Source: a bacterium
Lineage (GTDB): Bacteria > Patescibacteriota > Minisyncoccia > Minisyncoccales > JANBVM01
Assembly (NCBI GenBank): GCA_030588745.1
Contig: JAUUXB010000003.1
Coordinates: forward strand, 9,358-73,357
DNA length: 64,000 nucleotides
Reading direction: 5' to 3'
Of this stretch, positions 2,762 through 35,784 are shown piece after piece. Position numbers and translations under genes: made by a program. How positions within the stretch are numbered: position 1 is the stretch's first letter; each line of letters starts with the position of its first letter. Below the pieces are notes generated by a model. It made no database searches. It was given only the letters and a program-made list of their open reading frames with translations, and was not told where the DNA came from.

Positions 2762-3441
2762 GCTGTATGTTAATCAATAATTATTTTAGCTTTTTATGGA
2801 TAATTGCTTCATATATCCTGGGATCTTTCCCTTCTGGACATATATTTACAAAGCTCTCTGTTAAAAAAGATATTTTACAAATTGGTTGGCGAAAAACCTC
2901 TGGCTCAAATGTTTTTAAAAACATTGGTATCTGGCAAGGAACACTCACTGGTGTTTTAGATATTGGTAAAGGATATTTGGCAGTTTATCTTGCTCAGTAT
3001 TTTGGCCTGGCAGTTTACTTTCAAGCACTTGCCGGAGTAGCTGCAGTTACTGGGCATAATTGGTCTTGTTTTTTAAAATTTTCTGGTGGAAGAGGCATAG
3101 GGACTTTGATTGGTGCTTTCTTGGCTCTATCTCTCAAACTTCTTTGGCCTTCAGTCATTGTTTTAATTGTCTTGGCAATTATATGGAATGCTTCAATTGG
3201 AACAATTGTTTTTTTAATGGTTTCTTTAACTTTAGCAGTACAATCCAACCAGTTTGAAACAATAGGAGTGTTAATATTAGGTTCTTTAGTTCCAATATTT
3301 ATAAAAAGACTTAGCCCAATAAACGAAATTAAAAGTGCAGAGAATAAATCTCTTTTAATACGAAACCGGCTTATTTTTGATGACGATAAAATATCTGGCC
3401 TGAGAATTAAGAGGATAATAAAGGGTTTGGGCTGGTGGTAG
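2758..3441 (+). CDS. plsY: Glycerol-3-phosphate acyltransferase PlsY-like membrane protein
   Basis: SYILGSFPSGHIF, GSGNVF-like SGSNVFKN and GHNWSCFLKFSGGRGIGT match PlsY motifs. I prefer the ATG at 2758, which overlaps the upstream TGA (ATGA coupling), over the 2692 start in the track. Confidence 0.8.
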   Translation: MSCMLINNYFSFLWIIASYILGSFPSGHIFTKLSVKKDILQIGWRKTSGSNVFKNIGIWQGTLTGVLDIGKGYLAVYLAQYFGLAVYFQALAGVAAVTGHNWSCFLKFSGGRGIGTLIGAFLALSLKLLWPSVIVLIVLAIIWNASIGTIVFLMVSLTLAVQSNQFETIGVLILGSLVPIFIKRLSPINEIKSAENKSLLIRNRLIFDDDKISGLRIKRIIKGLGWW

Positions 3442-3480
3442 GGTTGACAGACTAATATTTATTTGGCAAAATAGGAATTA

Positions 3481-3505
3481 GTCCGTCAAAACGCGGACAT
3501 TTTTA
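3481..3505 (+). terminator. Intrinsic terminator after plsY
   Basis: GTCCGT-caaaac-GCGGAC hairpin followed by ATTTTTATT. Confidence 0.5.
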
Positions 3506-3536
3506 TTAAAAACACTATAATTTCTCAATTCAGTTT

Positions 3537-4757
3537 ATGGACATGAAAAACTTCACTTCAGCCATTAGTCAGATTGCTGAAGAAAAAGGAATTTCTTCAG
3601 AAAAAGTTTTAGAAACTATTGAACAGGCCTTGGCTGCAGCTTATAAAAAGGATTACGGAAAAAAGGGACAGATTATAAAGGCAGAACTTGATGAAAAATC
3701 AGGTCAAGTTAAATTTTGGCAGGAAAAAACAGTGGTAAATGAAAAAATGATTTATTCAGAAAAAGAACTGGAAGAATTGCAAAAGTCCCCTAAAACCACT
3801 GAGGATAAAGAAAAGCTTCGCTTTAATCCAGAAAAGCATATTATGATTGAAGAAGCAAAAAAAATAAATCCTAAAATCAAAATAAATGAAGAGTTGATTA
3901 TATCTTTAAAATCCAAAGAGGAATATGGAAGGATTGCTGCTCAAACAGCCAAGCAGGTAATCATGCAAAGAATCAGAGAGGCTGAAAAAGAAAGTATTTT
4001 TGATGAATATAAGTCAAAAGAAGATAACATTATTTCTGGTATTGTTCAAAGAATAGAAGGTAAAAATGTGTTTTTTGATATTGGAAAAACTTTAGGAGTT
4101 TTACCTAGAGAAGAGCAAGTGCTGGGAGAATTTTACAGACCAGGCCAAAGATTAAAACTCTATATCTTAAAGGTTGAAACAACTTCTAAGGGCCCTAAGA
4201 TTTTTCTTTCCCGCGCTTATCCAAAATTAGTTTCAAAACTTTTTGAACTAGAAGTTCCAGAGATTTCTGCTGGTACAGTATTGATAAAATCAATAGCAAG
4301 AGAGTCTGGCTCAAGAACAAAGATTGCAGTTGCTTCACTTGAAGAAGGAATTGACCCAATTGGAGCAGTTGTTGGTCAGCGCGGAACCAGGGTTCAAGTA
4401 GTAATCAATGAGCTTGGTGGAGAGAAAATTGATATTATTGAATATTCTGATGATCCCAAAATATATATATCTAATGCTTTAAGTCCAGCTAAGGTTGAAG
4501 AAGTTAAGATTATGCCAAAAAACACAGCTTTAGCTATTGTTCCTTATAATCAGTTATCTCTGGCCATAGGAAAAAATGGTCAAAATGTAAGATTAGCTGC
4601 TAAATTAACTGGATGGAAAATTGATGTCAGAAGTTCTTCTCAAGAAACAGAAGAAATAAAAGAAAAAAAGCAGGAAAAAGAACCAAAGCCAGCTCCTGCT
4701 AAGAAACCAGAGGTCAAAGAAAAAAAGAAAGAGAAAAAAAGAAAAAAGAAAAAATAA
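3537..4757 (+). CDS. nusA: Transcription termination/antitermination factor NusA with a Lys-rich C-terminal tail
   Basis: N-terminal domain, S1 and two KH modules are recognisable (GIVQRIEGKNVFFDIG, DPIGAVVGQRGTRVQ, LAIGKNGQNVRLAAKLTGWKIDV). It ends in KKKEKKRKKKK rather than AR repeats. Confidence 0.9.
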   Translation: MDMKNFTSAISQIAEEKGISSEKVLETIEQALAAAYKKDYGKKGQIIKAELDEKSGQVKFWQEKTVVNEKMIYSEKELEELQKSPKTTEDKEKLRFNPEKHIMIEEAKKINPKIKINEELIISLKSKEEYGRIAAQTAKQVIMQRIREAEKESIFDEYKSKEDNIISGIVQRIEGKNVFFDIGKTLGVLPREEQVLGEFYRPGQRLKLYILKVETTSKGPKIFLSRAYPKLVSKLFELEVPEISAGTVLIKSIARESGSRTKIAVASLEEGIDPIGAVVGQRGTRVQVVINELGGEKIDIIEYSDDPKIYISNALSPAKVEEVKIMPKNTALAIVPYNQLSLAIGKNGQNVRLAAKLTGWKIDVRSSSQETEEIKEKKQEKEPKPAPAKKPEVKEKKKEKKRKKKK

Positions 4758-25685: not shown

Positions 25686-26051
25686 ATGGATAAAAAAACT
25701 ATTAAACAATTTAAAGAAAGATTAGAAAAAGAAAAAAAACAGATTGAAAAACAGTTTAAAACTTTTGCTGACAAGGATGAAAATGTAAAAGGTGATTGGG
25801 ACACCAGGTTTCCTAAATGGAATGGTGGTTCTGGCGGTTCAGCTCTAGAAACTGCAGCTGATGCAGTTGAGGAATACAGCACTCTTTTACCAATAGAGCA
25901 TACTTTAGAACTCAGGCTCCAAAATATTAATAATGCCTTAGAAAAGATAAAAAAAGGACAGTATGGAGTTTGTGAAAAATGCAAAAAAAAGATTCCTGAT
26001 AAAAGATTAGAAGTTTATCCAGAAGCAGGGGTTTGTTTGAAATGTAAATAA
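25686..26051 (+). CDS. DksA/TraR-family C4 zinc-finger protein
   Basis: Coiled-coil N-terminus and CEKCKKKIPDKRLEVYPEAGVCLKC at the C-terminus. Confidence 0.75.
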   Translation: MDKKTIKQFKERLEKEKKQIEKQFKTFADKDENVKGDWDTRFPKWNGGSGGSALETAADAVEEYSTLLPIEHTLELRLQNINNALEKIKKGQYGVCEKCKKKIPDKRLEVYPEAGVCLKCK

Positions 26052-26126
26052 AAATGGTCTCAACTCTGATTTTTCTTCTTTCTATGCAGCCTTCCAGTTT
26101 TTGTTAAAGATTTATAAATCAAAACT

Positions 26127-26146
26127 GCCCAGTAATGGGCTTTTTT
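26127..26146 (+). terminator. Intrinsic terminator after the dksA-like gene
   Basis: GCCCA-gtaa-TGGGC followed by TTTTTT. Confidence 0.55.
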
Positions 26147-26168
26147 AAATGGGAATTTTTAATTTTAT

Positions 26169-26197
26169 TTGACAATTCTTTGATAAAATATTATAGT
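26169..26197 (+). promoter_or_regulatory. Near-consensus sigma70 promoter for the hexapeptide-repeat gene
   Basis: TTGACA, 17-nt spacer, TATAGT. An AAAGAGG ribosome-binding site precedes the ATG at 26288. Confidence 0.55.
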
Positions 26198-26287
26198 ATT
26201 GACAGTACAAATAAGCCTATACTAAACTCTCAAGTACTACGCTTCAGGGATTAATCAGGCAAGTACATAAAAATTAAAGAGGCGAGA

Positions 26288-27178
26288 ATGAAATTGAAAA
26301 AAGTAGTGAAAATTGATAAAGTTAAAAATATTTATGGAAATCTATTCTTTGATGGAAAATTGGTTTTCATAAATAAGTGGGGTTGGGAAAAAGCCATAGT
26401 AACAATCACTGGCTCTTTAAATGCAAAGGGTGTGGAAACAGGAAAAAGACGGGAAGGATATGGGGGTGTCGAGATTAGAGTTTTCAAAAACTATATAGTT
26501 GCCAAAGACGATATAATCGATGGAAGCCAACTAGTAATTGGATACCAAATAGTTGGTAGAAATCAAAGAATTGAAGAAAATCAAGAAGTCCGTGGATACC
26601 AAAAAATTGAAGGAAATCAGGTTGTTGTAGTAAATCAAAGAATTGGCGACTATCAAATAGTAAATGCTGATCAAACGATAAAAGGAGATCAAGAGATTAA
26701 TCGATTACAAAGAATCACTGGAGCTCAAAAAGTTATAGGAACACAAACGATTTACGGAAATCAAATAGTAGGTCCAGGATCCCAAAAAATCCTTTCTTCT
26801 CAAACGATAAAAGGAAACCAATGGATTAAGGGAAGCCAGAAAATTTTAGGAAATCAAGATATCGAAAAGTCTCAAATAATCGATGGAGAACAAGAAATTG
26901 CTGAGACTCAAACAGTTGGAGGGTTCCAATTCATTGAAGGAAATCAGAAGATTGTCAAAGAACAAAACATTGGCACATCTCAGCTTGTTAAAGGAAATAT
27001 TAATGTTGGTCATTCTATTAACACAGGGGATATCATCATAGCTGAAAAAATCAAGTGTGGCTCAGGATATACAATTAAAGCTGGTAAAATAATCGAAGCT
27101 AACGAAATTATAGGAAAAGTAGAAAGCGGTAAAGTAAGAAGACCAAATACCAAAAAGAAAGAACTTTCCTCATTCTGA
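26288..27178 (+). CDS. Glutamine-phased hexapeptide-repeat protein (predicted beta-helix), function unknown
   Basis: 296-aa ORF with its own promoter, RBS and terminator. Residues 81 to about 237 form 26 consecutive hexads of consensus Q-x-[IV]-x-G-N. Confidence 0.7.
   Translation: MKLKKVVKIDKVKNIYGNLFFDGKLVFINKWGWEKAIVTITGSLNAKGVETGKRREGYGGVEIRVFKNYIVAKDDIIDGSQLVIGYQIVGRNQRIEENQEVRGYQKIEGNQVVVVNQRIGDYQIVNADQTIKGDQEINRLQRITGAQKVIGTQTIYGNQIVGPGSQKILSSQTIKGNQWIKGSQKILGNQDIEKSQIIDGEQEIAETQTVGGFQFIEGNQKIVKEQNIGTSQLVKGNINVGHSINTGDIIIAEKIKCGSGYTIKAGKIIEANEIIGKVESGKVRRPNTKKKELSSF
26528..26998 (+). repeat. Coding array of 26 tandem 18-nt (hexapeptide) units
   Basis: CAA/CAG recurs every 18 nt, with one 21-nt unit. 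The peptide units run QLVIGY QIVGRN QRIEEN QEVRGY QKIEGN ... QNIGTS QLVKGN. Confidence 0.85.
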
Positions 27179-27216
27179 ATTTCAAAAAACTCTTTTTTCT
27201 ACTCCCCAATATATCA

Positions 27217-27241
27217 CCCAAGAATTTTTTGGGATTTTTTT
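27217..27241 (+). terminator. Intrinsic terminator after the hexapeptide-repeat gene
   Basis: CCCAA-loop-TTGGG followed by ATTTTTTT. Confidence 0.5.
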
Positions 27242-27246
27242 ATTAG

Positions 27247-27275
27247 AAAAAATCTCTACAATATGCTTGCAGAGG
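27247..27275 (-). terminator. Intrinsic terminator after the LysM/M23 gene
   Basis: On the minus strand, CCTCTGCAA-loop-TTGTAGAG followed by ATTTTTT. Confidence 0.5.
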
Positions 27276-35241: not shown

Positions 35242-35784
35242 TTAAAAAATAACAGTACCAGCAAGTATTTCACCTCTTATTCTATTTGCTTTTATAGTTT
35301 GTTTTGAAAAATCTCCTTTACTCTTTTCGCCAGCAGATATCTCTTGAGTTTTAATATATTTCCCTGCCCAAATAGATTGTCCGGATTCAATCTTTTTTTC
35401 ACACGTAATCCAACTGTAAGCTATAATCGGCCCATCTGCTACTATATATCCAACGGCCGTAATACTGCCCTTTCTAGCTATAATGAATCCTCCGGTTTTA
35501 ATCCAAACGCCTGAATAAACAGACCATCCAGCTATAATAGAACCACTAACTATAATAGAGCCTTCGGCAATAATAAACTGCCGAGATTTAAGCAAGCCAT
35601 TAACAATAATTGATTCGTAAGACCGAATATTTACGGCTATCAGGGGGCCTTTTGATTTAATCTCATCTGCTTCTACATTTCCGTGTACAACACATCCTTT
35701 TTTATTTGAAAAAATTATTTTAGTACCTTTATGATACAGATTCCTATTACACTCTTTTTCTTTAATCTTTATTTCTTTTATAAT
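35242..35784 (-). CDS. Hexapeptide-repeat (beta-helix-like) protein, paralog of 26288-27178, with no canonical start codon
   Basis: The frame is open from the in-frame TGA at 35790-35788 down to 35242. Its N-terminus, IKEIKIKEKECNRNLYHKGTKIIFSNKKG, aligns with KVVKIDKVKNIYGNLFFDGKLVFINKWG of the paralog. The body has six-residue periodicity (FIIAEG SIIVSG SIIAGW ...). The only start candidates near the homologous N-terminus are ATT at 35784 or ATA at 35781, after AAGAGGA. The track calls only the TTG at 35595. Confidence 0.5.
   Translation of the reverse strand: MIKEIKIKEKECNRNLYHKGTKIIFSNKKGCVVHGNVEADEIKSKGPLIAVNIRSYESIIVNGLLKSRQFIIAEGSIIVSGSIIAGWSVYSGVWIKTGGFIIARKGSITAVGYIVADGPIIAYSWITCEKKIESGQSIWAGKYIKTQEISAGEKSKGDFSKQTIKANRIRGEILAGTVIF

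What the first reader, a model, noticed from the sequence alone, without database searches (positions are those of the whole stretch)
26288..27178. Protein with 26 consecutive glutamine-phased hexapeptide repeats (Q-x-[IV]-x-G-N)
From residue 81 the protein reads QLVIGY QIVGRN QRIEEN QEVRGY QKIEGN QVVVVN QRIGDY QIVNAD QTIKGD QEINRL QRITGA QKVIGT QTIYGN QIVGPGS QKILSS QTIKGN QWIKGS QKILGN QDIEKS QIIDGE QEIAET QTVGGF QFIEGN QKIVKE QNIGTS QLVKGN. A Gln falls every sixth residue, with a single one-residue insertion.

Six-residue periodicity with an aliphatic residue at a fixed position is the hallmark of left-handed beta-helices. The strictly conserved Gln, which could form a Gln ladder, is not the classic acyltransferase hexapeptide signature ([LIV]-G-x4), and I see no catalytic or cofactor motif.

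The gene is a stand-alone unit with a near-consensus promoter (TTGACA-17-TATAGT), a good RBS and its own terminator. It sits about 2 kb upstream of the T4SS-like cluster (separated by the LysM/M23 and rsmA genes) and has a paralog inside the cluster (35242-35784). Possible roles are a filament, spike, scaffold or surface-recognition element. All of these are speculative.
Basis: partly seen in the sequence, partly recalled or inferred. Interest (0 to 1): 0.65.

Follow-up and report, generated by a model that had tools for sequence, protein, structure and literature searches.

The report
Glutamine-core hexapeptide beta-solenoid rod protein
A small accessory gene of an ultra-small (Patescibacteria) bacterium encodes a non-enzymatic rod protein built from 26 six-residue repeats, each with an invariant glutamine where related beta-helix proteins have a small buried residue; the family is rare, mostly phage-linked and unnamed, its function is unknown, and its half-polar core would be structurally unusual.

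Summary
ORF 26288-27178 (+) encodes 296 aa. All 26 of its Gln lie at residues 81-232, spaced every six residues, with one 7-residue unit.

The gene is real. It has its own promoter, RBS and terminator, and a syntenic ortholog in one congener keeps all 26 aligned Gln (dN/dS 0.43).

AlphaFold2 gives a regular solenoid: pLDDT 95.6 for residues 58-165, with a Q-x-[IV] strand every six residues. An 18-residue super-period and a 36-residue (2x18) ortholog indel point to three sides per turn.

The nearest named relatives are YdcK-type hexapeptide proteins (N-A-x-V-x-G). The Gln aligns with their Ala, a position that my own knowledge of these folds places in the core. No Pfam model matches. PHROG families 5070 and 7964 (function unknown) do match. 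No solved structure matches well by sequence or fold, and handedness is unresolved.

The gene is a 1.2-kb accessory cassette, absent from two congeners that keep both flanking genes and the start of the T4SS-like cluster. It is therefore not a T4SS component. The claimed paralog is only a loose relative.

Best reading: a capped, cytoplasmic, non-catalytic rod of phage-type lineage, acting as a spacer or binding module. I rate it a new variant of a known kind, of moderate interest.

The parts
26052..27245 (.). Accessory cassette between the convergent dksA/traR-like gene and the LysM-M23 gene. It is absent from two congeners. The right-hand boundary is approximate.
   Evidence: In G001 and G003 the two flanking genes are 97 and 59 bp apart. 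In G000 and G002 the Q-hexad gene lies between them. The M23-side terminator (AGAAAAA.CTCTAC...GAGGTTTT) is shared by the G001 and window spacers.
26127..26140 (+). Terminator-like hairpin downstream of the dksA-like gene and upstream of the cassette promoter.
26169..26197 (+). Sigma-70-type promoter TTGACA-17-TATAGT (11/12).
   Evidence: The same sequence is conserved upstream of the G002 ortholog.
26277..26282 (+). Ribosome-binding site AAGAGG, 5 nt before the ATG.
   Evidence: sequence
26288..27178 (+). CDS, 296 aa, pI 9.6, net charge +12.6, no hydrophobic segment.
26288..26527 (+). N-terminal cap, residues 1-80, all-beta. The last turn places R63, Y69 and D75 at the Gln position.
   Evidence: AF2 strands with pLDDT 72-89. 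The subfamily shares this cap, with invariant F27, I40, G42, L44, V65, Y69 and V71.
26528..26998 (+). 26 Gln-phased hexapeptides, Q-x-[IV]-x-G-[N/x], residues 81-237. There is one conserved single-residue bulge (GPGS).
26999..27136 (+). C-terminal cap, residues 238-283. Hexad-like units continue with Ile (I238, I244, I250) at the Gln position. This is the best-conserved part between orthologs.
   Evidence: Sequence, ortholog alignment and dN 0.083. AF2 confidence is low here.
27137..27175 (+). Basic C-terminal tail, RRPNTKKKELSSF.
27217..27233 (+). Intrinsic terminator of the gene.
35242..35784 (-). Loose relative: a 180-codon open frame with I-x-[AST]-x-G-type hexads, no phased Gln and no canonical start before 35595.
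   Evidence: (FapA PF03961 E=8e-4, below cut-off)

Best explanation
**What it is.** The gene encodes a soluble, cytoplasmic, non-catalytic rod. It is a single-chain, three-sided beta-solenoid with 18 residues (three hexads) per turn.

**How the repeat is built.** In each hexad, Q-x-[IV] is the beta-strand and x-G-N is the corner. Position 3 (Ile/Val) and position 1 (Gln) point into the core. Gly at position 5 makes room, and positions 2, 4 and 6 are exposed and free to vary. The 26 Gln would therefore form three stacked, hydrogen-bonded ladders of 9, 9 and 8 rungs inside the rod.

**How the ladders end.** One turn of Ile (I238, I244, I250) closes them at the C-terminal end. One turn of R63, Y69 and D75 in a folded N-terminal cap closes the other end.

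**Lineage.** By descent it is a variant of the YdcK-type hexapeptide repeat (N-A-x-V-x-G) in which Gln replaces the Ala. That Ala sits at the small, inward-facing position of hexapeptide beta-helices (established knowledge, not tested here). Rod length changes in whole turns: the ortholog is two turns longer.

**Genomic status.** The gene is a self-contained accessory cassette. Its repeat lineage is otherwise found mostly on phage-like DNA.

**Function.** It most likely acts as a rigid spacer or binding module. Candidate surfaces are its exposed faces (one face carries a conserved, partly hydrophobic stripe) and its basic ends. It is not an enzyme and not a T4SS part.

**Shown versus inferred.** Shown: the repeat, conservation, periodicity, solenoid prediction, lineage and accessory status. 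Inferred: inward Gln ladders, monomeric state, handedness and cellular role.
For: **Repeat and its conservation**
- All 26 Gln are in phase.
- The G002 ortholog keeps 26/26 aligned Gln, while positions 2-6 keep only 13-19/26. dN/dS is 0.43.

**Fold**
- AF2 on the full protein gives pLDDT 74, with values above 90 for residues 81-150.
- AF2 on residues 58-165 gives pLDDT 95.6 and pTM 0.85. Strands fall on Q-x-[IV] every six residues, and a 4-3-4 strand-length pattern repeats every 18 residues.

**Three hexads per turn**
- Similarity at the exposed positions is significant only at lags of 3 and 6 hexads. p=0.011 and 0.004 for the target; p=0.03 and 0.03 for the ortholog.
- The only large ortholog indel is exactly 36 residues.

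**Lineage**
- An exhaustive phmmer search of 1.84 billion representatives gave 135 hits. 31 of them have Q-phased runs of 7 or more.
- Of 36 non-Q hits scanned, 25 match PF18836 (YdcK solenoid repeat) and 25 match PF00132.
- A gap-free alignment over about 200 residues places every Gln on the Ala of N-A-x-V.

**Subfamily with shared caps**
- P0013, P0028, P0029, P0056 and P0129 share the N- and C-caps but carry far shorter unbroken runs of Gln-phased hexads, 8-13.

**Not an enzyme, not exported**
- No Pfam hit, no His conserved across the subfamily, no hydrophobic segment, and a zinc-ribbon fusion in P0013.

**Accessory status and phage link**
- The gene is absent from G001 and G003 at the same site.
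- It was found in 3 of about 460 Patescibacteria genomes.
- It matches phrog_5070 (1.5e-11) and phrog_7964 (7e-10).
- Relatives lie on phage-like contigs.

**Possible interface**
- Position 2 on face 2 reads I-K-I-R-I-W-I-F-L and is conserved in the ortholog.
Against: - No coordinates were available to me. The inward orientation of Gln rests on strand alternation, the DSSP register and the alignment to Ala, not on inspection of the model.
- Foldseek finds no convincing solved analogue. The best E is 0.06, and left-handed hexapeptide enzymes superpose poorly (TMq <= 0.23). Right-handed three-sided helices do somewhat better but still stay below 0.5 (IBP 6bg8 0.49, bactofilin 0.28-0.41). Fold class and handedness are therefore unsettled.
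- The C-terminal 50 residues are modelled with low confidence.
- The same repeat occurs in YadA-anchored trimeric adhesins and fibre-like proteins, so a trimeric assembly is not excluded.
- There is no conserved gene neighbourhood and no expression data. Only DNA metagenome runs were found. The cellular role is therefore a weak inference.
Confidence: 0.55

Rival explanations
1. Homotrimeric fibre. Three chains would intertwine or pack into a triple beta-helix, like phage tail-fibre or needle segments or adhesin stalks, with the Gln at the trimer axis. The rod would then be up to three times longer.
For: - Q-x-V-x-G-[ND] runs occur inside YadA-anchor trimeric autotransporters P0001 and P0004.
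- They also occur in P0088, which looks like a fibre with a C-terminal globular domain.
- tblastn hits a Synechococcus phage S-CRM01 tail-fibre gene (E=4e-4).
- Relatives of the target weakly hit tail-fibre PHROGs (about 3e-5).
- Foldseek against viral models hits proteins with the S74 fibre-chaperone domain (E=3.5e-5).
Against: - The AF2 monomer folds into a compact solenoid at pLDDT 95.6.
- Folded caps at both ends are conserved.
- The protein is small, has no signal peptide and sits among housekeeping genes.
- The tail-fibre hits are weak and limited to the repeats.
Confidence: 0.12
2. Bactofilin- or FapA-like cytoskeletal polymer. The solenoid would polymerise end-to-end into filaments that organise the small cell.
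For: - It is a beta-solenoid with basic termini.
- 21 of 36 non-Q relatives and one Q-member (P0077) score sub-threshold on Pfam Bactofilin.
- The loose paralog scores sub-threshold on FapA.
- Foldseek TM to bactofilins is 0.28-0.41.
Against: - The target has no Pfam hit to bactofilin or FapA even at E<=10.
- Folded caps at both ends argue against end-to-end growth.
- The gene is dispensable: it is absent from 2 of 3 congeners and from about 99% of sampled Patescibacteria.
- Its lineage is phage-linked.
Confidence: 0.1
3. Divergent left-handed beta-helix acyl- or acetyl-transferase (LpxA/GlmU/NeuD-like).
For: NCBIfam sub-threshold hits to Arch_glmU, NeuD and LpxA (E 5e-4 to 9e-3, 15-19 bits). 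LpxA chains are the best genuine PDB sequence hits (E 0.3-0.8).
Against: - The scores are more than ten-fold below the curated cut-offs, and Pfam Hexapep does not match.
- There is no conserved His or other catalytic motif in the subfamily.
- There is no substrate-binding loop or extra domain.
- Repeat number varies freely.
- Foldseek TM to LbH enzymes is <= 0.23.
Confidence: 0.03
4. Phage-derived host-takeover or counter-defence protein (a decoy or inhibitor acting through its exposed faces). It would be retained as a moron or remnant in the bacterial chromosome, possibly now serving the bacterium in phage exclusion.
For: - The repeat matches phage families phrog_5070 and phrog_7964.
- Related solenoid proteins with other caps sit in the early region of a T7-like Aeromonas phage, upstream of the RNA polymerase gene.
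- Related proteins also occur in a 12-gene tandem array on a phage-like contig.
- The target is a single-gene indel with its own promoter and terminator.
Against: - There are no other phage genes around it and no PADLOC match.
- The protein is basic, so it is not a DNA mimic.
- The target's cap subfamily was seen only on apparently cellular contigs.
- This rival concerns the biological role only and is compatible with the structural explanation.
Confidence: 0.2

Closest known systems
YdcK-type beta-solenoid / bacterial hexapeptide-repeat proteins (Pfam PF18836, PF00132; HEXAPEP clan)
   Same: Six-residue period. The register x-[VI]-x-G-N is the same. Alignments run gap-free over about 200 residues. 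YdcK-type proteins are the only named families among the remote hits. There are three hexads per turn.
   Different: Gln replaces the small residue (Ala) in 26/26 units. No Pfam model scores at all. The predicted model does not superpose on solved left-handed helices (TMq <= 0.23). The N- and C-caps are different.
PHROG families phrog_5070 and phrog_7964 (phage proteins of unknown function)
   Same: HMM matches of E=1.5e-11 and 7e-10 over the repeat region. The Q-hexad proteins on contigs L011 and L012 hit the same families.
   Different: The matches cover the repeats only. The target's caps are shared only with a handful of metagenomic or Patescibacterial proteins. The target is chromosomal, among housekeeping genes.
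Bactofilin (PF04519) and FapA/DUF342 (PF03961) solenoids
   Same: Small, non-enzymatic, three-sided beta-solenoids of about 18 residues per turn. Weak fold similarity (TM 0.28-0.41). Sub-threshold profile hits in relatives.
   Different: No profile hit for the target. Those cores are hydrophobic rather than Gln-containing. Bactofilin ends are open for polymerisation, whereas this protein is capped.
Asn/Gln ladders of amyloids and modelled beta-helices (HET-s fibrils, PMC7556116; ice-nucleation protein model, PMC3196904; polyGln beta-helix models, from my own knowledge)
   Same: Stacked amide side chains running along the helix axis, one per rung.
   Different: Those are intermolecular fibrils, short ladders or theoretical models. 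Here the ladder would be intramolecular, three-fold, 8-9 rungs long, and in a capped soluble protein. This is predicted, not observed.

Membership tests
Hexapeptide-repeat (LbH) superfamily, YdcK-type | Six-residue periodicity with an aliphatic residue at position i | tested here: met
   I or V in 24/24 regular units.
Hexapeptide-repeat (LbH) superfamily, YdcK-type | Small residue [STAV] at i+4 (= i-2), packed in the core | tested here: not met
   Gln in 26/26 units. It aligns with the Ala of N-A-x-V repeats.
Hexapeptide-repeat (LbH) superfamily, YdcK-type | Profile match above the curated cut-off (PF00132, PF14602, PF18836) | tested here: not met
   No Pfam family at E<=10.
Hexapeptide-repeat (LbH) superfamily, YdcK-type | Significant sequence similarity to accepted members | tested here: met
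   phmmer E=2e-6 to 1e-3, calculated for a library of 1.84 billion proteins. Of 36 non-Q hits scanned, 25 match PF18836 and 25 match PF00132. Repeat composition may inflate these scores.
Hexapeptide-repeat (LbH) superfamily, YdcK-type | Three-sided coil of 18 residues | tested here: met
   4-3-4 strand pattern. Lag-3 and lag-6 periodicity. A 36-residue ortholog indel.
Hexapeptide-repeat (LbH) superfamily, YdcK-type | Left-handed winding | tested here: inconclusive
   Foldseek gives TMq 0.11-0.23 to LpxD, PglD, GlmU and gamma-CA, against 0.3-0.49 to right-handed helices. None is significant.
LbH acyl/acetyltransferases | Conserved catalytic His or active site at a trimer interface | tested here: not met
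   The single His (H242) is not among the invariant columns of the subfamily. NCBIfam scores are 15-19 bits against cut-offs of 160-292.
Bactofilin (PF04519) | Profile match; polymerisation through open solenoid ends | tested here: not met
   No Pfam hit. Folded caps are predicted at both ends. Polymerisation itself cannot be tested with these tools.
FapA / DUF342 (PF03961) | Profile match to the FapA solenoid domain | tested here: not met
   The target has no hit. The loose paralog scores 19.6 bits against a cut-off of 31. One of 37 Q-hexad proteins hits at E=0.003.
phrog_5070 / phrog_7964 | HMM match | tested here: met
   E=1.5e-11 (residues 143-240) and E=7.2e-10 (residues 63-155), repeats only.
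phrog_5070 / phrog_7964 | Encoded by a phage or prophage | tested here: not met
   The flanking genes are PNPase, GH3, dksA-like, M23 and rsmA. The site is syntenic in congeners.
T4SS-like cluster of Patescibacteria | Co-occurrence with the cluster | tested here: not met
   G001 and G003 keep rsmA, the Cys-rich protein and the VirB6-like gene but lack this gene.
Trimeric autotransporter / phage fibre repeats | Signal peptide plus anchor, or a fibre/chaperone domain; obligate trimer | tested here: not met
   No hydrophobic N-terminus and no YadA anchor or S74 domain. The oligomeric state cannot be tested here.

The most novel reading that the evidence does not exclude
This would be a natural, soluble, single-chain beta-solenoid whose core is half polar.

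- Three continuous, buried, hydrogen-bonded Gln ladders (9, 9 and 8 rungs here; up to 16 per ladder in the 48-unit relative on contig L011).
- Each ladder plugged by one turn of Ile at one end and a Tyr/Asp/Arg turn at the other.
- Rod length tunable in 18-residue steps.

It would be the first natural, monomeric counterpart of the triangular polyGln/amyloid-type ladder models. It would also be a new, designable solenoid core chemistry, and one that phages have multiplied into length-variable gene arrays.
Probability: 0.4. Interest if true: 0.7.

Novelty: new variant of a known kind. Interest (0 to 1): 0.5.

Why it matters
- **Core chemistry.** Beta-solenoid cores are normally aliphatic. If Gln really fills one of the two core positions in every rung, this family shows how a polar amide ladder can replace hydrophobic packing in a soluble protein. 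That bears on polyGln and amyloid structural models and on repeat-protein design.
- **Annotation.** The work defines an unnamed repeat class, Q-x-[IV]-x-G-x. Pfam misses it entirely and PHROGs lists it only as 'unknown function'. It occurs in small capped proteins, phage gene arrays and adhesin stalks.
- **This genome.** The result removes the gene from the T4SS-like system. It is a sporadic, probably horizontally acquired cassette.

Tried and rejected
- **Word-indexed homology search.** It found nothing. The exhaustive search was needed.
- **hhalign of the subfamily against YdcK-like hits.** It returned an uninformative 8-column match.
- **Profile search of PDB sequences.** It gave only chance ribosomal S11 hits. 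The single-sequence search gave a compositional hit to an 'ATETVEA' repeat protein and marginal LpxA hits.
- **Foldseek against PDB, whole model and high-confidence fragment.** Nothing better than E=0.06, so fold class and handedness could not be assigned.
- **DivIVA fusion as a cytoskeletal clue.** Rejected. P0130's 'Q-hexads' are an acidic QYADGD/QYIDES low-complexity linker, not the same repeat.
- **Conserved gene neighbourhood.** None exists. G042 has HtrA and ClpB beside its copy, and P0013 sits among housekeeping genes.
- **Defence-system membership.** No PADLOC hit.
- **Annotated phage genomes.** They hold no close relative of the target itself.
- **Literature.** Searches for Gln ladders, hexapeptide helices and YdcK found no description of this family.
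- **Expression.** Only DNA metagenome runs hold the locus.
Full report
**1. The observation**

The ORF at 26288-27178 (+) starts with ATG, is preceded by AAGAGG, and encodes 296 aa. All 26 glutamines of the protein sit at residues 81-232. They are spaced exactly six apart, apart from one spacing of seven at QIVGPGS, and there is no Gln anywhere else. Among the 24 six-residue units tallied, position 3 is Ile (17) or Val (7), position 5 is Gly in 13, and position 6 is Asn in 8. Positions 2 and 4 vary.

The array is old at the DNA level. Tandem Repeats Finder sees only a 2.5-copy, 72%-match, 36-bp stretch, and both Gln codons are used (22 CAA, 4 CAG). The phasing is therefore maintained by selection on the protein.

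**2. The gene is real but dispensable**

A search of 60 related genomes found one clear ortholog, in a congener (G002). It lies at the same place, between the dksA/traR-type zinc-finger gene and the LysM-M23 peptidase gene. The ortholog has 32 Gln-phased units instead of 26.

The two proteins align with a single large indel of exactly 36 residues. All 26 aligned Gln are identical, while the other hexad positions keep 13-19 of 26. Overall identity is 72% and dN/dS is 0.43. The C-terminal 59 residues are the best conserved (dN 0.083).

Two other congeners (G001, G003) lack the gene. There the dksA-like and M23 genes are only 97 and 59 bp apart, and the M23-side terminator is recognisably the same as in the window. 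Both still carry rsmA, the Cys-rich surface protein and the VirB6-like gene that open the T4SS-like cluster. The gene is therefore a 1.2-kb accessory cassette and not part of that system.

Among 400 further Patescibacteria genomes, no additional Gln-phased member appeared. One hit was a YdcK-type Ala protein and one was a spurious low-complexity match. Together with G042 (239 aa, identical in length to P0029, flanked by HtrA and ClpB), the subfamily occurs in 3 of about 460 genomes sampled.

**3. Relatives**

Pfam gives no hit even at E<=10. NCBIfam gives only far-sub-threshold hits to left-handed-helix acetyltransferases (15-19 bits against cut-offs of 160-292). The word-indexed search found nothing.

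The exhaustive phmmer search of 1.84 billion representatives gave 135 hits, the best at 3.6e-22 and 30-40% identity. Of these, 31 carry the same Gln-phased hexads in runs of 7 to 26. They fall into groups with different ends:

- **(a) The target's own subfamily** (P0013, P0028, P0029, P0056, P0129). These share the N-cap (I.GD..FDGKVIF.N.I.ITGSL.VK.V...I.V...YIV..DD.V.G.Q) and the C-cap. Their longest unbroken Gln-phased runs are 8-13 units. P0013 adds N-terminal zinc ribbons and lies among housekeeping genes.
- **(b) A group with an 'IIDENYEGVKK' N-cap and an 'IKIGC...W..F.D..I..MD' C-domain.** One 26-kb metagenomic contig (L011) carries 12 of these side by side, with 10 to 48 consecutive Gln-phased units. 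Their C-domain is shared with phage pentapeptide-repeat proteins.
- **(c) Repeats embedded in YadA-anchored trimeric adhesins and in membrane or fibre-like proteins**.

None of the Gln-phased proteins has a Pfam family covering the repeat. Cluster look-ups show they are rare and unnamed. PHROGs does hold matching families of unknown function: phrog_5070 (1.5e-11) and phrog_7964 (7e-10). Contigs L011 and L012 carry other phage-family genes.

**4. What the repeat derives from**

Of 36 hits without phased Gln that I scanned, 25 match PF18836 (YdcK beta-solenoid repeat) and 25 match PF00132 (Hexapep). Their consensus is G-N-A-x-V-x. In gap-free alignments of about 200 residues, every Gln of the target falls on the Ala of that motif.

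In hexapeptide beta-helices this position (i+4, equivalently i-2) is the small residue that packs inward next to the aliphatic residue. That is established knowledge of LpxA-type folds, not something tested here. The Gln-phased repeat is therefore an Ala-to-Gln variant of the YdcK-type hexapeptide.

**5. Fold**

AF2 with a 29-sequence alignment gave pLDDT 74.3 overall. Values exceed 90 for residues 81-150, there is a dip at the GPGS bulge, and confidence is low after residue 246. Residues 58-165 alone gave pLDDT 95.6 and pTM 0.85. A three-residue strand falls on each Q-x-[IV], and in the second half a 4-3-4 strand-length pattern repeats every 18 residues.

Independent sequence evidence supports three hexads per turn:

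- Similarity at the exposed positions 2, 4 and 6 is significant only at lags of 3 and 6 hexads. The permutation p-values are 0.011 and 0.004 for the target and 0.03 and 0.03 for the ortholog.
- The ortholog indel is two 18-residue turns.

Written three per row, the faces differ. Face 1 stacks Y/Y/Y/L..F at position 6. Face 2 has I-K-I-R-I-W-I-F-L at position 2, conserved in the ortholog, which makes it a candidate interface.

Gln (position 1) and Ile/Val (position 3) lie on the same side of one strand, and the invariant aliphatic residue must be buried. The Gln should therefore point inward, giving three ladders of 9, 9 and 8 rungs. The hexad register continues beyond the array. I238, I244 and I250 occupy the Gln position in the next turn. 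R63, Y69 and D75 occupy it in the preceding turn, and Y69 is invariant in the subfamily. I read these as ladder caps. That reading is an inference.

**6. What could not be settled**

Foldseek against the PDB found no convincing analogue for either model (best E 0.1 and 0.06). Left-handed hexapeptide enzymes (LpxD, PglD, GlmU, gamma-carbonic anhydrases, CcmM/CcmN) rank by E-value but superpose badly (TMq 0.11-0.23, rmsd 11-14 Å). Right-handed three-sided helices do better but stay below 0.5 (ice-binding proteins up to 0.49, TPS domains 0.41-0.44, bactofilins 0.28-0.41).

I had no access to coordinates. Handedness and the exact cross-section therefore remain open, and membership of the left-handed fold class is 'inconclusive' despite the sequence link. 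PDB sequence searches also found nothing.

**7. Function**

The protein has no signal peptide or hydrophobic segment (maximum KD19 0.64). It is basic (pI 9.6, net +12.6), with the charge in the caps and tail and a neutral repeat region. It has no conserved catalytic residue, no defence-system match and no conserved neighbours.

I conclude that it is a capped, non-catalytic rod of roughly 12 turns. That count is 36 hexad-like units including the caps; at about 4.8 Å per turn the rod would be nearly 6 nm long. This length is an estimate. It would be used as a spacer or binding module.

The lineage is phage-linked. A related Ala-type protein sits in the early region of a T7-like Aeromonas phage, just upstream of the RNA polymerase gene. 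A host-takeover or exclusion role is therefore a reasonable but untested guess for the family. The target itself may be a domesticated or stranded copy.

**8. The 'paralog'**

The frame 35242-35784 (-) is open but has no ATG, GTG or TTG before 35595. It carries I-x-[AST]-x-G-type hexads without phased Gln and hits FapA below threshold. It resembles the target only weakly: BLASTP E=0.007, and N-terminal z=4.3 against the target but not significant against the target's ortholog. It is found in only one other related genome and in none of the congeners. It is a second sporadic solenoid gene, not a demonstrable paralog and not a conserved T4SS part.

**9. Verdict**

It is wrong on the T4SS association and weak on the paralog.

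The finding is a new variant of a known kind. It is a hexapeptide solenoid whose small core residue is replaced throughout by Gln, in a family that is unnamed in Pfam and absent from the searchable literature. I re-derived the three-sided periodicity and the phage link independently, and could not confirm a specific FapA relationship.

Noticed in passing
L011:2532-14005 (ENA ERZ23486553 scaffold_212): There are 12 tandem same-strand paralogs with a shared N-cap (IIDENYEGVKK..W). Most also share a C-domain (IKIGCKEFTP.QWE.F.D.QI..MD). They are separated by 10 to 48 consecutive Gln-phased hexapeptides. No Pfam hit occurs anywhere on the fetched part of the contig. Two neighbouring genes hit PHROGs of unknown function.
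   Followed up: partly
L021:3263-3913 (Aeromonas phage Aer_P220, ON624112.1): GenBank annotates a 102-aa 'putative MFS-type transporter' at 3417-3725, whose product reads MLGCLAMLGCLA... A 216-aa ORF at 3263-3913 in another frame encodes a YdcK-type GNARVSGDARV hexapeptide protein. Its 'IKAGCQLH...EMDG' C-domain was hit by the Q-hexad protein P0019 (tblastn residues 24-174). The deposited CDS is probably in the wrong frame. The gene lies in the early region, upstream of the RNA polymerase gene.
   Followed up: partly
L006:11271-11299 (G002, spacer between the Q-hexad gene and the dksA-like gene): A 29-bp segment (26/29 identical) duplicates the 3' end of the LysM-M23 gene, which lies on the other side of the cassette. 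This may be a scar of the event that inserted the cassette. The window's copy of the spacer lacks it.
   Followed up: partly
window 25962-27253 versus a 19-kb contig in sediment metagenome run X3: A diverged copy of the cassette (under 95% similarity by the tool's own bins) in another sediment metagenome has about 100 extra bases inside the repeat region. It is either a third length variant or the G002-like form.
   Followed up: no
window 35242-35784 (-): A solenoid ORF whose conserved-looking first 60 codons have no ATG, GTG or TTG start. It is absent from all three congeners and was found in only one other genome of the family (G005, 37% identity).
   Followed up: partly
P0009 (KAJ6645272.1, Pseudolycoriella hygida, 'Translation initiation factor IF-2, partial'): An insect-assembly protein of 810 aa contains two identical runs of 26 Gln-phased hexads. 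It could be contamination, a horizontal transfer or an unrelated low-complexity repeat.
   Followed up: no
P0001, P0004 (YadA-anchor proteins): Trimeric autotransporter adhesins whose passenger or stalk regions contain G-[DN]-Q-x-V-x hexapeptide runs. I do not know this as a named adhesin repeat type.
   Followed up: no
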